From: Eledone cirrhosa
Lineage: Eukaryota
Assembly: GCA_964016885.1 (NCBI GenBank)
Contig: OZ024748.1
Coordinates: forward strand, 19,902,001 to 19,966,000
Length of the DNA stretch: 64,000 nt
Reading direction: 5' to 3'
A program made the translations under genes and the position numbers. How positions within the stretch are numbered: position 1 is the first letter of the stretch; each line of letters begins with the position of its first letter. Under the pieces are notes generated by a model. That model did no database searches. It saw only the letters and a program-made list of their open reading frames with translations, and was not told the origin of the DNA. Below are positions 2,136-61,967 of this stretch, in pieces.

Positions 2136-2330
2136 TTTAATATAGATGAGATTCTACAGGACTAGAACTGTTTCATTCTTTAGAAATCATCAGGATGGTG
2201 ATTTCTGATGATTTCTAAAGAATGAAACAGTTCTAGTCCTGTGGAATCTCATCTATATTAAATAAAACTTTTAGACTCTGCAATGTATTGAGTACCTTAC
2301 TTACTGGGGTTACCTCCGACTCCACCCGGA

Positions 2331-2333
<3 letters not shown>
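2136..2333 (+). mobile_element. Family A pLTR-like element with fold-back (inverted repeat 2136-2262) and two damaged HHR cores
   Basis: ~58 bp arms, each with CTGATGA..GAAACAG; tail similar to the reverse complement of 13543-13660 and 33364-33440; (TA)n flanks. Confidence 0.7.
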
Positions 2334-2392
<59 letters not shown>

Positions 2393-13524: not shown

Positions 13525-13756
13525 GTGTGGGGGGGGGGGGTTTATCCCGGTTTCAATCGGGGGTAACCAGCGTAAGTAAGGTTAATACAATGCAGAGTAT
13601 AAATATTTAATATAGAAATAGCATCTACAGAACTAGACCTGTTTCATTCGAAGGAAATCGTATATATATATATCATATATACATATATATATATATATAT
13701 ATGATATATATATATTTATTTATATGTGATATATATATATACATATATATGACATG

Positions 13757-20441: not shown

Positions 20442-22223
20442 ATGGCCGAAGCTTCTTCACCAAAATTCGAAGGAGGAAAGGGGAAGATGAACTTACAGCT
20501 TCCCCCTGCCACTGTCACAGTAGCAGAGGTCAAGAAGATAGGTCAGCCAGAGGAAGAATTCTCTCCACCTGTTAACCGACAACTTGACGTTACCATGGCA
20601 ACAACCCAAAGAACCAACAGCAACAACAACAACAATGCGACGGTAGAAAACAACACCAATAACAATAACAATAACAACAACAAGACCAATAACGGTGACA
20701 ACAACAACAATGATAACAACAACACCACCAACGACAACAACAACACAAACAAACAAAATTTCTCCTTCGCCGAGACGACAAGGAAAACCCTCGACTATCT
20801 GCCAGTAGATATAACAAAAGCGAAGGAGCTACTGGCGGATGCGAAAAAATATATAGTGTACGGGGAAAATGGTTCATTCACAATCCATTCCCCCCCGGAA
20901 CTAAAAAGCCAGAGACTCCTAAACACGGTCATGTTTAGGACAATCTCGAACAAAAGTAAAAAACCAGCTCAACCATCACAGAGCGAGATAGAGCTGGTTT
21001 TAAAAGACGTCATGAAGGACATCACCTTCATTCAGAAGGATAGACTCTACGGGAGTCTATCCATTCTCATGAAGGACAGGGACACAGCAGTGAAACTGTC
21101 CATCAAACCAATCACATCCACCGCATACACCTTCTACCCTACGTACATGGGTAGAAGAACACAAAAAATAAAAATCCACACCATCCTGCCGATTATGGAC
21201 ATATGGTGGGTTTTGACAGGTTTTCTGGACCTGGAGGATGACATGCTGGTGTCCATGGGAAAGGCATCGGGTGACGCGTTCAGTGGAACGAGCCTCGAAC
21301 TTGTAGTTCAAATGAGGCCCGAAAGGATCGCCCAGATCCCTGAACGCGTCATACTGGATGATCTAACCTTCATCAACATTACCGTTGAGGGTAGACGGCC
21401 CTCGTGTTACCTCTGCGGAACCAGAGGTCACCTGAGGGCTGTCTGTCCCCAACTTAATAAGAAAACCCCAATCCTGCCTACACCACCAACAACTGCACAA
21501 CCAACACAATCACCACAACAACCACTACAAAAACAACCACCACAGCTCAAACCAAAACAAAACAATGTCCAACCCATCCCCTCCACTCAAAAAACAAAAA
21601 CAATTTCCAAAACACCCGTACCGCAAACACAACCCGAAAATATACCCCTCCCCTCCAACGCGGAAGATGACCCTAGTTCGTCGTCAGACGAGGAGGAGCA
21701 CTTCCACACAATCAAAAGAAAAAAAAGAAAACACACCTCAGACACACAAATGAAAAAAACCCCTCCCCAAAACATAACACTGACACCAACACAAAAGAGC
21801 TCACAACAGCAAACAAAAAACACCACACAAAAACAAAAACATGCATACACATACATAAATACAAGAAACAAAAAACTGTTAAACATTGTGTACAACAACA
21901 ATCTAATAAAAACACAAGGGCCTAACTTCACCCAGGCAGGGGATTTCCCCCACCTCAAAATGATTAAGGCCCCACAGGACACCTATAAAACTTTAAAAAA
22001 CAATTTTAAAGAGGACGTGGGTCCCCCCTGCGTCGGGCCCATTAACCGAGTCCTCCTAAAAAACTATCCCACCCCCTCCCCAAACACCCTCACAACTCCA
22101 AGCTCCCCAACCACACAACACACTGATGCCCCCACACTTCCACAAACCACCACCCCACCCAACAACCCATCCCCCACCCTAATGGAAATTGTGCAGCCCG
22201 ATACCCGGGACGCAGAGAGGTAA
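20442..22223 (+). CDS. Tx1 ORF1 (gag-like nucleic-acid-binding protein)
   Basis: 593 aa open frame; zinc knuckle CYLCGTRGHLRAVC (CX2CX4HX4C); Asn-rich N-terminus; basic KRKKRK patch. Confidence 0.9.
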   Translation: MAEASSPKFEGGKGKMNLQLPPATVTVAEVKKIGQPEEEFSPPVNRQLDVTMATTQRTNSNNNNNATVENNTNNNNNNNNKTNNGDNNNNDNNNTTNDNNNTNKQNFSFAETTRKTLDYLPVDITKAKELLADAKKYIVYGENGSFTIHSPPELKSQRLLNTVMFRTISNKSKKPAQPSQSEIELVLKDVMKDITFIQKDRLYGSLSILMKDRDTAVKLSIKPITSTAYTFYPTYMGRRTQKIKIHTILPIMDIWWVLTGFLDLEDDMLVSMGKASGDAFSGTSLELVVQMRPERIAQIPERVILDDLTFINITVEGRRPSCYLCGTRGHLRAVCPQLNKKTPILPTPPTTAQPTQSPQQPLQKQPPQLKPKQNNVQPIPSTQKTKTISKTPVPQTQPENIPLPSNAEDDPSSSSDEEEHFHTIKRKKRKHTSDTQMKKTPPQNITLTPTQKSSQQQTKNTTQKQKHAYTYINTRNKKLLNIVYNNNLIKTQGPNFTQAGDFPHLKMIKAPQDTYKTLKNNFKEDVGPPCVGPINRVLLKNYPTPSPNTLTTPSSPTTQHTDAPTLPQTTTPPNNPSPTLMEIVQPDTRDAER

Positions 22224-22247
22224 GTGCCTTTTCTCTTCACCACCAAC

Positions 22248-25200
22248 ATGGCTATGCTAAGAGTAGGCTGTTTAAATGCGCGTGGCCTGGGCTCAACTTG
22301 GAAGCAAGCAATGCTTCTAAATGACCTCAGGTCACAACGTATAGATGTGATGGTTATTTGCGAGGCCCGGATCAGCAACGTGCGACAGCTGGCCCCCACC
22401 TTTGATGACTTTGAGATGCACGCATCTCTCTGTCAGCCTGGAGGTGGGGGTGGAGTTGTCGTTCTGCTGCAAAAACATCTGGGTCTCGCAACACAGATGG
22501 TACATTTGGACCCGGAGGGTCGACTAGTGGTTCTGGACCTTGGCAGTGGTAAAGGCGGAGCGTTTAGGTTGGTAGCCGCCTACGGCCCTTTCGGGTCAAT
22601 GCGGCCGGACTTCTTCCATCGTCTGGAGACTTTTCTAGGGACGTCCCGCTCCTTGCTATTAGTGGGGGACTGGAATGGTATCCTAGATGCACGTTGGGAC
22701 TACGTAGGGGCCTGCCCCGATAGAGAGGGGTGTAATAGCCTCAAAGGGTTAATCGGTCGATTTGACCTGGCCGATAGATATCGACTAGATTTTCCGACTG
22801 CGCCAACCTGGACTTGGGCAAATCGTAGCGGATCATCTAGGTCGTACCTAGATAGGTTCTTAGTTAGAATTAAGGATAAGGACTTTTTAAGTTGTCCAAA
22901 AATGCGCATTGTTGGCTATTCAGACCACAAATTAGTGACCTGCATGGTCAACCTTGACAGAACTCATAGACAGGGCCCCGGTTACTGGAAGCTCAACTTG
23001 TCCTTGCCGGCAAGTAGAGCCTACAGGAATCGGATTAGTACGTTAGTTAAGGAACGGTTGACTGGAGCGATCGTCAACAGCAGGTGGTGGGTATCTCTAA
23101 AGAGAGAGATTAGAGTAGTCTCGATAGAATTTAGTAAGGTTCTAGCTGCGGATAGGAATAGGAAGGAAAGGGAGCTAATAGATAGAGTAGAAGAGGCAAT
23201 TAGAAGCGGCGACGTGGCCAGAGTGCTAGCGTCGAGAACGGCTTTGGGCCAGTTTTTCGACGCGAAGCACGAAGGCTGCGTTGTCCGAAGTAAAATACGT
23301 GCTCTAGGGAACGAGGGGACCAAAGCTGTTAGCTGGGCCCGCGTGACAGAGGCCAACAGTGGAACTAAATCCACCATCCGGTCTTTGCGAGACCTGGATG
23401 GACGGGCGATTCTTGAGCCTAAGCAGATGTGTGAGGCCTTTCAAAGGCACTTTGCCCGACTGTTCGGGAGGGGCGGGGAGCCGGTTGGGAACGTGGACTT
23501 CGGTCCATACCTCGACGGCCTGCCGCGCCTCTCGGACAGGGAGGCGAAGTCCTGCGAGGAGCCGATTTCGGCCGCTGAGATAGAGGACGTGCTGAGCCAA
23601 TGCGGCAAACGCAAATCCCCGGGTCTCGATGGTCTTCCTTACGAATTATATCTAGCTATGCCGGACTTGTTCCCCGATCTCCTCGAGGCGGTCTACTGCA
23701 ACTGGCAACAGAACGGGAGAATTCCCTGTACTGTGACCAAGGGCGTAGTCACGCTAGTGAGGAAGGACGAGAACAAGGGGGACGAAATAAGTAACTTCAG
23801 GCCCATAACACTGCTAAATACAGAGTTACAGATTTTGGCCAAGGTGCTAGCAAAGAGGTTGGCGCTTGTCGTGGGCAACCTGGTGGGAGATGCGCAGACA
23901 TGCGCTATCCCGTCCAGGTCCATCCATGACAACCTCCACCTCATGCGATACATCATAGAGAGGGTTGGGAACGAACCCGGCTTTGGTGGGGCTCTGATCA
24001 ACTTGGATCAATCTAAGGCGTTCGATAGGGTCGACCATGGTTACCTGGATGCGGTGCTAGCGGCGGCAGGCTTCGGACCCGTTTTCAGGGGCTGGATCAC
24101 TGCTATGCACAGCAGCCGCATCTGCTCTAGGGTCAAGGTGAACGGCTACCTCTCGGAGCCGTTCAAAATCGCGCGGTCCATCCGACAAGGGTGCCCTCTC
24201 TCCTCCCTTCTGTATGTATTGACTCTCGAGCCACTACTGCGGAAGTTGGAGTTGTTGCAGGGCATCCCTTTGGAACCGGGATTGCGGAAAGCGGTGTCGG
24301 CCTACGCCGATGACGTGACAGTAATGGTGTCGACGGCCTCCGAAATCGAGGCGGTCGGCACCTTACTGGAGGAGTACGAAAAGTTCACAGGGGCTAAGCT
24401 GAACCGGGACAAGTCGATCGGTTTGCAACTCGGCACGTGGAGGGGCAGACCGATGCCCTCCGATAGCGTCGTCGGACGCTGGACGGAGGGCCCGGTGAAG
24501 TTGCTCGGGGTCTGGTTCGGACCGGACCTCCAGGTGGAGAAAAACTGGGCGGAGGTTACGAACAGAGTGTTTGCACTGACCCAGAAGTGGGCCAGTTGCA
24601 AACTATCCCTGAAAGGTCGGGCGGAGGTGGCGAACACCTACATAGCGTCCGTCATCTACTACCGCCTGACCGTAGTGCCCTGCCCAAGGGAAACCCTCAC
24701 CAAGATGGAGCGCGCGCTCTTCCAATTCCTTTGGAAGAGGCGGGCTCCTATGGTGAGGAGATCCATCTGCTGTCAACACCCTTCGAAAGGAGGGCTGGGG
24801 ATGCCGTGGCTAATGATGCGTAAACACGCATTAAGGCTACGGCACCTCTACGTATTCCTCACCGGACAACCGGTGTGGGCCTCGTTTGTGAGACGAACCT
24901 TTCCCAGACTCGTCTCACTCACCGAGCTGCAATCCTGGGTCAAGCAAAGACCGAGAAAACTGGGCGCCTGGCACACTGAGTGTGCCCAGGCGCTCACCGC
25001 CCTCTGGCAGGCGGATCCGGTTATCAGTGGAGACTCCACCGCAACATTCTATAGAGGGCTGGTACGCAGCAGGTGCGACGACGCCCTCGGAGAATATAGA
25101 CATGGAGGAGGACGAACTGGCCAGCCTTTTCGGTAGGACATTCAGCCCGGGACCTATGGACAACTTCCAGAAGTCCCTGGCCTGGCAGTGCTACCGAGGG

Positions 25201-33012: not shown

Positions 33013-33442
33013 ATATACATATATATACGTATGTGTGTGTGTAAACATAGATATTGCAATTGTTCTATTTGTTTAGAAGTAAAACATCCTAAGTTGTTTA
33101 TTTAACTAGTTTATTGTTTGTCTGTTAATTTTAATATTGTTTGTTTGTTTGTAGAGAGGTTTCGCCATTTCTAACTCTAGCAAACTTAAGTGTGTTTTGA
33201 TAGACGTAAAGAAAAGATATACACGAAAAATTATCGATAGCTACAATTCGATTATCTATTGTTGTAGAAAAAATTAAATTCACTATACAATTACATTTGG
33301 TTTTCCTTTAAATAAATACACACACAGTTATTCCGGGTATATATATATATATATATATATATAGTTATTCCGGGTTCAATCGGGGTAACCACCGTAAGTA
33401 AGGTACTCAATACATAGCAGAGTATAACTGTTTAATATAGAA

Positions 33443-33542
33443 AAGCTCCTACAGGACTAGAACTGTTTCATTCGTGAGAAATCATCAGGAAGCTTCCTGA
33501 TGATTTCTCCCGAATGAAACAGCTCTTGTCCTGTAGAAGCTT
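33443..33542. ncRNA. Two head-to-head hammerhead motifs (family A) sharing palindrome GAAGCTTC
   Basis: Plus 33490-33542: aagcttc-CTGATGA-tttc tccc gaat-GAA-ACAG..CTGT-A-gaagctt. Minus 33443-33495: aagcttc-CTGATGA-tttc tcac gaat-GAA-ACAG..CTGT-A-ggagctt. Confidence 0.82.
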
Positions 33543-33816
33543 TTCTATATTAAAAAAAATATATATATATATATTAAATAGTTTAAGCAAAGAATCGCAG
33601 CTTTCACCGTTAACGGGATCTTCTTCGCTGGATTGGCAGTATCGGTAGAGTGTCGGACGCATGCTTTGACGCATAGAGTTACGGCCCTTGCCATTCTGAG
33701 TTCAAATCCCGCTGAGGTTCACTTTGCTTTTCATCCTTACGGGGTCGATAAAAGAAAGTACCAGTTATGCACTGGGTAATTGCTGGCCTTGTGCCATGAG
33801 CAGAAACAATTATTAT

Positions 33817-61879: not shown

Positions 61880-61913
<34 letters not shown>

Positions 61914-61914
61914 T

Positions 61915-61967
61915 GAGATTCTACAGGACTAGAACTGTTTCATTCTTTAGAAATCATCAGGAATCTC
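61915..61967 (-). ncRNA. Type I hammerhead ribozyme motif (family A)
   Basis: Minus strand gagattc-CTGATGA-tttc taaa gaat-GAA-ACAG ttctagtc CTGT-A-gaatctc; 7 bp stem I, GUA triplet. Confidence 0.82.

What the first reader, a model, noticed from the sequence alone, without database searches (positions are those of the whole stretch)
33443..33542. Bidirectional double hammerhead built on one palindrome
Seen: the palindrome GAAGCTTC (33489-33496) serves as the 5' strand of stem I for an HHR on each strand; both have intact cores and GUA triplets. The family member at 61915 has a different but fully paired stem I (gagattc/gaatctc versus aagcttc/gaagctt), i.e. compensatory change. Inference: a transcript in either direction could self-cleave, in competition with the long hairpin formed by the two arms.
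Basis: partly seen in the sequence, partly recalled or inferred. Interest (0 to 1): 0.72.

Follow-up and report, generated by a model that had tools for sequence, protein, structure and literature searches.

The report
Head-to-head Penelope ends, likely cap-terminated
The palindrome with a hammerhead motif on each strand is real, but it is one of at least 110 identical-centred stubs of a Penelope-type jumping gene; it likely arose when both ends of a cut chromosome copied the element's RNA back to its capped start and were joined head to head, and it is predicted to fold into a long hairpin that keeps both ribozymes from working.

Summary
Observation confirmed: 62-nt arms, no spacer, a type I hammerhead motif on each strand, real stem I covariation between subfamilies. 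The locus is two short end pieces (pseudo-LTR: hammerhead plus tail) of a Hydra-clade-like Penelope-like retrotransposon joined head to head in a (TA)n run; the same end sits directly before a 758-codon RT/endonuclease frame elsewhere in the genome. The exact centre recurs at 110 loci, rebuilt in several subfamilies. The hairpin beats any hammerhead-keeping fold by about 60-70 kcal/mol, the promoter is missing, and cores in such palindromes decay like loops. Inverted pLTRs with junction palindromes are in print. The less ordinary part is inferred: about half of sampled copies stop at the first base of stem I, 30 nt behind a TATA box, often with an extra G, and 32 of 36 exact palindromes pair one long with one short arm. 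That fits two target-primed cDNAs running off at the RNA cap and annealing through AGCT. No RNA data tested it. The scan noted the same reading before on other DNA, including this genome.

The parts
33326..33337 (-). 12-nt extra copy of the element's distal end (possible aborted start or separate tiny insertion)
   Evidence: sequence; origin inferred
33338..33363 (.). (TA)13 run, left target
   Evidence: most distal ends in fetched loci abut TA runs
33363..33430 (-). tail of the long arm, from the proximal end to the distal 3' end; present on this side only
   Evidence: in ORF-bearing copies it runs on into the reading frame
33431..33492 (-). left arm of the palindrome (part of the long arm)
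33444..33494 (-). type I hammerhead motif: 5' stem I strand 33494-33489, core from 33488, GUA 33452-33450, 3' stem I strand 33449-33444 with one wobble
   Evidence: activity untested
33491..33494 (.). AGCT shared by both arms; likely the microhomology at which two cDNA ends annealed. 33491 (plus) and 33494 (minus) equal parent position -6, the inferred transcription start
   Evidence: inference
33491..33541 (+). type I hammerhead motif: 5' stem I strand 33491-33496, core from 33497, GUA 33533-33535, 3' strand 33536-33541; loop III palindrome broken
   Evidence: activity untested
33493..33554 (+). right, short arm, ending at the proximal 3' end
33555..33575 (.). A run and (TA)n, right target
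2136..2360 (.). sister-subfamily head-to-head pair with a non-palindromic centre, short arm left and long arm right
61905..61967 (-). sister-subfamily single short arm; parent match ends at -6 and a G follows where parents have C
13542..13659 (-). diverged long arm cut off inside the core

Best explanation
The locus is two short end pieces of a Penelope-like retrotransposon joined head to head in a (TA)n run, likely made when both target strands primed reverse transcription on the element's uncut RNA, ran off at its likely capped 5' end and annealed through AGCT, and it is predicted to be an inactive hairpin. SHOWN: family membership, parent structure (TATA box, hammerhead, tail, RT/endonuclease frame), recurrence of the centre, the sharp stop at stem I position -6, the one-long-one-short rule, arms matching in subfamily. 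INFERRED: (1) transcription starts at the first base of stem I, 29-31 nt behind TATAAAT; (2) the endonuclease cuts both strands of (TA)n and RT starts at two internal sites, about 58 and 128 nt behind the core start; (3) both cDNAs read through the uncleaved GUA site and end at the cap, often adding a C; (4) the two 3' ends anneal by 1-4 nt and are filled in, giving a set of junctions of which the perfect AGCT overlap is one; (5) the stub has no promoter, and read-through RNA would fold into the hairpin.
For: 110 exact centres, control 0; 1815 exact cores; 203 parent junctions. Core lies 201-202 nt before the protein match in 24 of 30 ORF loci, and focal-type ends precede the same frame at 83-87% identity (L427, L428, L430). 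Of 100 cores, 52 of 95 at risk end at -5/-6, none at -7, and 0.2-0.6% per nt beyond -20; position -7 is C in 36 of 36 extended copies but G in 43 and C in 4 of 64 truncated ones; G follows in 13 of 22 flanks not derived from CATCAG, background 13%. Of 50 tail-anchored arms 15 end at -5..-8, none at -9..-196, none at the cut site itself. TATA starts 29-31 nt upstream in 41 of 59 parents, and at 29 nt in a subfamily with 73% protein identity. A third subfamily shows the same limit: 22 of 30 end at or before -7, none at -8..-11. Long+short in 32 of 36 exact palindromes and 41 of 47 inverted pairs, long+long never. The arm that keeps GCTTC is short in 21 and long in 20. Arms share the subfamily 9-mer in 13 of 18 (permuted mean 3.6, max 9). 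In vitro a PLE cuts and extends both strands, starts RT at two internal sites and uses uncleaved RNA (PMC11167929). An untemplated 5' G is read as a cap copy for L1 (PMC9341517).
Against: No RNA evidence for a start at -6 or for a cap. The extra G is weaker in other subfamilies: 4 of 12 and 4 of 8, and RT terminal transferase or microhomology choice could give it. The -6 count accepts A or G as parental and the core pattern required CTTC, so the split between -5 and -6 is soft. Position -6 is also the end of stem I, so structure and start site cannot be told apart by position alone. The focal arms differ at 4 of 62 sites, one of them a subfamily-type position, which one template does not explain without later mutation. 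In 2 of 50 tail-anchored loci both arms end within 3 nt of the cut site and 25 loci join exactly there, so some templates may be cut. Pfam gave only a sub-threshold GIY-YIG hit (E 0.022) and no RT hit on the two ORF pieces. Samples are the first listed hits, mostly contig C1.
Confidence: 0.7

Rival explanations
1. Same identity (inverted pLTR stub), but made by self-priming: one cDNA, or an antisense template as proposed by Arkhipova 2013, folds back at the AGCT palindrome and copies itself until it meets (TA)n.
For: Explains arms that share subfamily and private variants and the long+short rule; the parent has a 4-bp mini-hairpin at this spot and two of 100 junctions (L128, L151) match it; proposed in PMC3846280.
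Against: In 21 of 41 long+short pairs the arm carrying the extra stem I bases is the short one, and a copy cannot be longer than its template. A zero-spacer centre leaves no room for a priming loop. It does not predict the extra G or the TATA spacing.
Confidence: 0.13
2. Two cDNAs as in the best explanation, but the stop at -6 is set by stem I pairing or by a splice acceptor, not by the RNA's 5' end.
For: Stem I ends exactly at -6. In D. virilis Penelope the intron's end maps to the 5' end of helix I (PMC4209133). One subfamily has a T-rich tract and CAG just here.
Against: The GGCTTC subfamily has no AG at this place yet stops at the same base; no shared upstream exon sequence is seen in truncated copies; the conserved TATA spacing and extra G favour a start site.
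Confidence: 0.1
3. One reading: a functional two-way ribozyme cassette whose cleavage competes with the hairpin.
For: Both motifs are present; stem I covaries; the exact centre recurs 110 times.
Against: Hairpin favoured by about 60-70 kcal/mol; core substitutions 9 of 336 versus 23 of 601 in loops, Fisher p 0.45, and only 15 of 35 palindromes keep both motifs; the centre is one of many junctions (7 of 100 cores); U.U closes stem II; single minimal PLE hammerheads showed no cleavage in vitro (PMC4209133).
Confidence: 0.04
4. A palindromic, MITE-like non-autonomous element that is copied as a whole.
For: Many copies with one exact centre and similar length.
Against: Exact centres occur in four 3'-arm subfamilies with both arms matching locally; no arm-specific difference is shared across loci; centres vary widely.
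Confidence: 0.03

Closest known systems
Inverted pLTR insertion units of endonuclease-bearing Penelope-like elements (Arkhipova et al. 2013, PMC3846280; Craig et al. 2021, PMC8557442)
   Same: Head-to-head inverted pLTRs, palindrome at the junction, tail on one end only, TATA and Inr-like motif in the pLTR, (TA)n targets.
   Different: Here the whole insertion is only about 190 bp; the tail is about 68 nt rather than 30-40; the junction clusters at one base, the start of hammerhead stem I. The 2013 paper read such palindromes as self-priming on an antisense template; the arm asymmetry here argues for two cDNAs.
Hydra clade of Penelope-like elements (Craig et al. 2021, section 11)
   Same: Single frame with C-terminal endonuclease, RWR (RWK-like), DKT, CxCX5C, CxxC and CxH motifs, (TA)n insertion, hammerhead in the pLTR.
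   Different: Unit is longer than 3 kb because of a microsatellite-rich 3' region; the hammerhead has a U.U closing stem II; no tree was built.
PLE hammerheads (Cervera and de la Pena 2014, PMC4209133)
   Same: Type I topology in the pLTR, palindromic loop III suited to dimers, consensus families with compensatory changes, pairs of motifs on opposite strands 100-700 bp apart.
   Different: Helix II is only 3 bp and lacks G10.1-C11.1; helix III is 4 bp; the two motifs here share their 5' strand with no gap.
Poseidon element of Anolis in vitro (Frangieh et al. 2024, PMC11167929)
   Same: Both target strands cut and extended, two internal RT start sites that define the tail, uncleaved RNA as template.
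   Different: That study saw no strand difference in start sites and did not treat inverted junctions; the genomic copies here pair one long with one short arm.
Viroid-like RNAs and retrozymes with ribozymes in both polarities or in tandem (listing; bioRxiv 2026.07.22.740005, part 1)
   Same: Hammerheads on both strands (viroid-like) or PLE-derived type I hammerheads (non-LTR retrozymes).
   Different: No tandem unit, no circle evidence; the second strand's motif is a mirror copy made at insertion.

Membership tests
Type I hammerhead ribozyme | Core CUGANGA, GAAA and UH triplet | tested here: met
   both strands; position 7 and loop II vary across subfamilies while the core stays
Type I hammerhead ribozyme | Three helices, stem I open, with covariation | tested here: met
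   38 parent-type copies: 96.4% of cells paired, 10 cells changed on both sides versus 2.2 shuffled (0 of 500); only 2 pairs involved, not beyond shuffles as a pair count (278 of 500)
Type I hammerhead ribozyme | G10.1-C11.1 (purine-pyrimidine) pair closing stem II | tested here: not met
   U.U in the focal arms and in 37 of 38 parents
Type I hammerhead ribozyme | Match to an Rfam hammerhead model | tested here: not met
   none among 40 matches at E<=10
Type I hammerhead ribozyme | Self-cleavage | not testable with these tools
   genomic hints only: 2 of 50 loci end near the cut on both arms
Penelope-like element pLTR | Same repeat before and after an RT/GIY-YIG frame | tested here: met
   before the frame in 24 of 30 loci; frame, 3' region, repeat in L384; focal-type ends in L427, L428, L430
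Penelope-like element pLTR | Inverted 5'-truncated copy and tail at one end | tested here: met
Penelope-like element pLTR | RT and GIY-YIG domains by profile | tested here: inconclusive
   Pfam GIY-YIG E 0.022, below cut-off; no RT hit on two pieces; YRDD and clade motifs seen by eye
Hydra clade | RWK-like, DKT, CxCX5C, CxxC and CxH motifs; (TA)n targets | tested here: met
   read in the translation of L391 and L383 against the description
Hydra clade | Phylogenetic placement with Hydra RTs | not tested
   no reference sequences fetched
Non-LTR retrozyme | Tandem units each with a hammerhead | tested here: not met
   focal locus is inverted, not tandem
Functional bidirectional ribozyme cassette | Selection on both cores and an accessible ribozyme fold | tested here: not met

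The most novel reading that the evidence does not exclude
These stubs record the Penelope insertion mechanism: the transcript begins at the first base of hammerhead stem I; one enzyme complex primes both target strands on one uncleaved RNA, one at each of the two internal start sites; both cDNAs copy the cap and are joined head to head. The conserved U.U hammerhead would then sit at the very 5' end of the mRNA as a gate whose cleavage removes the cap and 45 nt, separating the template role from translation.
Probability: 0.5. Interest if true: 0.62.

Novelty: new member of a known kind. Interest (0 to 1): 0.35.

Why it matters
The locus itself is likely an inert stub. The family matters because how Penelope-like elements build inverted repeats is named as an open question (PMC8557442) and the published explanation is antisense self-priming (PMC3846280). 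Thousands of young copies here give countable, testable predictions: a capped start at one base, two cDNAs of fixed different lengths, an uncleaved template. It also warns that double-stranded hammerhead palindromes in such genomes should not be read as viroid-like or regulatory devices.

Tried and rejected
Rfam: whole window (150 of 258 rows shown, none a hammerhead) and focal stretch gave only hairpin-type models below their thresholds. Sequencing runs: no RNA holder listed; the four runs are contigs and cannot show starts or strand. L011 first suggested the parent ORF, but that 784-codon RT/GIY-YIG frame lacks this repeat in the other 29 of 30 loci, so it is a different family; rejected. 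Search for a continuation past the tail with CTTACCTG gave 11 copies ending in TA or other simple repeats; a shared downstream piece in L074 and L348 proved to be another repeat. Search with far-upstream DNA did not reach the ORF. Run-off at the ribozyme cut as origin of the centre: rejected, the centre is 45 nt from the cut and 47 of 50 long arms read through it. The chance control was faulty (pattern missed the real sites) and was redone; the script failed and was redone. Look-up of earlier findings by sequence returned nothing. Paper searches found no paper describing cap run-off or a long/short pairing rule for Penelope-like elements; the library lacks most subscription papers, and supplements (notably files S1/S2 of PMC8557442, which may list this family) were not opened.

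Full report
OBSERVATION. The palindrome is real: arms 33431-33492 and 33493-33554, 62 nt, 94% complementary, no spacer, 4 mismatches. Each strand reads a type I hammerhead motif starting from the shared GAAGCTTC. A descriptor with a 5-bp stem I finds 9 sites in the window against a mean of 0.14 in 100 shuffles. Rfam has no matching hammerhead model at E<=10. Stem II is 3 bp closed by U.U instead of G10.1-C11.1, the minus arm has a wobble in stem I, and the plus arm has lost the CUAG palindrome of loop III. Contigs of other runs cross the centre.

FAMILY. The genome (3.0 Gb; by recall it looks like a cephalopod, untested) holds 1815 exact copies of the 30-nt core, 110 of the exact 28-nt palindromic centre, 203 of the non-inverted parent junction, and 9144 and 2405 cores of two sister subfamilies; reversed-pattern controls gave 0. 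Copies have two 3' ends, about 58 and 128 nt behind the core start, mostly abutting (TA)n. The focal locus has the long end on the left (33363) and the short end on the right (33554).

PARENT. The repeat stands 201-202 nt before the protein match in 24 of 30 loci of a frame that is most often 758 codons between stops; L384 shows frame, microsatellite-rich 3' region and repeat again. Ends of the focal type precede the same frame at 83-87% identity (L427, L428, L430). The translation has YRDD, RWR, DKT, CxCX5C, CxxC and CxH, which matches the description of the Hydra clade of Penelope-like elements (PMC8557442 section 11). Pfam gave only a sub-threshold GIY-YIG hit, and no tree was built.

COVARIATION. 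In 38 parent-type copies stem I is exactly 6 bp; the seventh pair forms in 2 of 38. Two pairs changed on both sides, A-U to G-C in 6 copies and C-G to A-U in 4: 10 cells versus 2.2 shuffled, but only two events.

WHERE COPIES STOP. Among the first 100 listed cores (contig C1; both arms of three loci and one duplicate included), 36 continue into the parent and 64 do not (one of these, L127, is by eye a mutated parent). Position -7 is C in 36 of 36 parents but G in 43 and C in 4 of the 64. By anchored alignment 52 of 95 at risk end at -5/-6, none at -7, and 0.2-0.6% per base beyond -20; A or G was accepted at -6, so only the boundary is firm. G follows the boundary in 21 of 30 flanks derived from the inverted CATCAG and 13 of 22 other flanks (background 13%, p about 6e-7). 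In 50 of 761 tail-anchored arms, 8 run on at least 197 nt, 15 end at -5..-8, none between -9 and -196, 24 inside the motif from -3 to +32, and 3 just behind the cut site. A TATA motif starts 29-31 nt before position -6 in 41 of 59 parents, and 29 nt before it in a subfamily at 73% protein identity. That subfamily shows the same limit (22 of 30 end at or before -7, none at -8..-11), but G follows in only 4 of 12, and in 4 of 8 in the AGATTC subfamily. Contig joints in other runs also show GG before this point. An untemplated 5' G is read as a copy of the cap in L1 (PMC9341517 passages). I infer that -6 is the capped transcription start.

HOW THE TWO ARMS PAIR. 47 of the 64 truncated copies have an adjacent inverted arm; 41 are long+short, 3 short+short, 3 intermediate, none long+long. 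Among 36 exact palindromes (35 of the 110 plus the focal one) 32 are long+short, 3 long+intermediate, 1 short+short. In the 18 with gap-free arms, both arms carry the same subfamily 9-mer in 13 (permuted mean 3.6, maximum 9), four subfamilies are represented, and several loci share private variants on both arms: the palindrome was rebuilt many times, each time likely from one template. The arm that keeps the extra stem I bases is short in 21 cases and long in 20, which a fold-back of one long cDNA cannot give. The perfect centre is 7 of 100 cores; other junctions overlap by 1-3 bases, and 25 loci join through stem I itself.

MECHANISM. In vitro a Penelope-like protein cuts and extends both target strands, starts at two internal sites that define the tail, and uses uncleaved RNA (PMC11167929, parts 1-2 of 4). 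Combined with the counts above: both target ends prime, one at each site, both cDNAs read through the GUA site to the cap, and their ends anneal, here through AGCT. Steps after the counts are inference. Against full absence of cleavage, L328 and L332 end within 3 nt of the cut on both arms.

IS IT A WORKING RIBOZYME PAIR? The full strands fold into hairpins of -83.3 and -91.7 kcal/mol; the best folds keeping hammerhead pairs are -22.5 and -22.2, and the hairpin is at about -42 when 25 nt of the core exist. The TATA region is absent from the locus. In 70 arms of 35 palindromes core positions changed at 9 of 336 and loop positions at 23 of 601 (p 0.45), and 15 of 35 loci keep both motifs. Single minimal PLE hammerheads did not cleave in vitro and dimers did weakly (PMC4209133, parts 1-2 of 4); a palindrome gives only one sense copy per strand.

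WHAT IS KNOWN. Head-to-head inverted pLTRs with junction palindromes, a one-sided tail and TATA/Inr motifs are described in PMC3846280 (passages and Discussion) and PMC8557442 (passages); opposite-strand hammerhead pairs in PMC4209133. D. virilis Penelope has a TATA-less internal promoter (PMC2377424 passages). The bioRxiv retrozyme paper was read in part 1 of 5. Nine paper searches found no account of cap run-off or of the long/short rule; supplements were not opened. After I had noted my reading, the scan's notes showed the same reading for other DNA, one in this genome; these are unchecked and not independent evidence.

VERDICT. Real, recurrent and explained: a new member of a known kind, likely inert at this locus, useful as a record of how these elements insert.

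Noticed in passing
window 5733, 7037, 13179 (minus); 18111, 44364 (plus); 17256 (minus): Further hammerhead-like motifs of other repeat families; similar families form inverted pairs 110-240 nt apart in neighbouring DNA (L051, L052, L055, L246, L254).
   Followed up: partly
L255, L257-L259: An abundant young two-frame Penelope-like family (784-codon RT/GIY-YIG frame, Neptune-like linker by recall) with tandem and inverted copies and no canonical hammerhead by my pattern; in L011 a truncated copy is fused directly behind the focal family's tail.
   Followed up: partly
whole genome: The AGATTC subfamily has 5751 forward versus 3393 reverse matches, unlike the balanced counts of the others; this may mean a large tandem array somewhere.
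   Followed up: no
window 33326-33363: A 12-nt copy of the distal end, then (TA)13, then the full arm: an aborted start, or TA added during priming.
   Followed up: no
family tail, e.g. window 33364-33415: The tail repeats a UUAC(C/U) motif several times and on the other strand reads like several splice donors; role unknown.
   Followed up: no
window 20442-25130: Two long open frames (593 and 970 codons); the second begins like an apurinic-endonuclease LINE ORF2 (by recall).
   Followed up: no
window 33625-33810: A tRNA-like short interspersed repeat just right of the locus, also inserted into several parent copies (L056, L075).
   Followed up: no
family hammerhead: U.U at positions 10.1/11.1 is kept across subfamilies down to 73% protein identity, which suggests a selected, possibly damped ribozyme variant.
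   Followed up: partly
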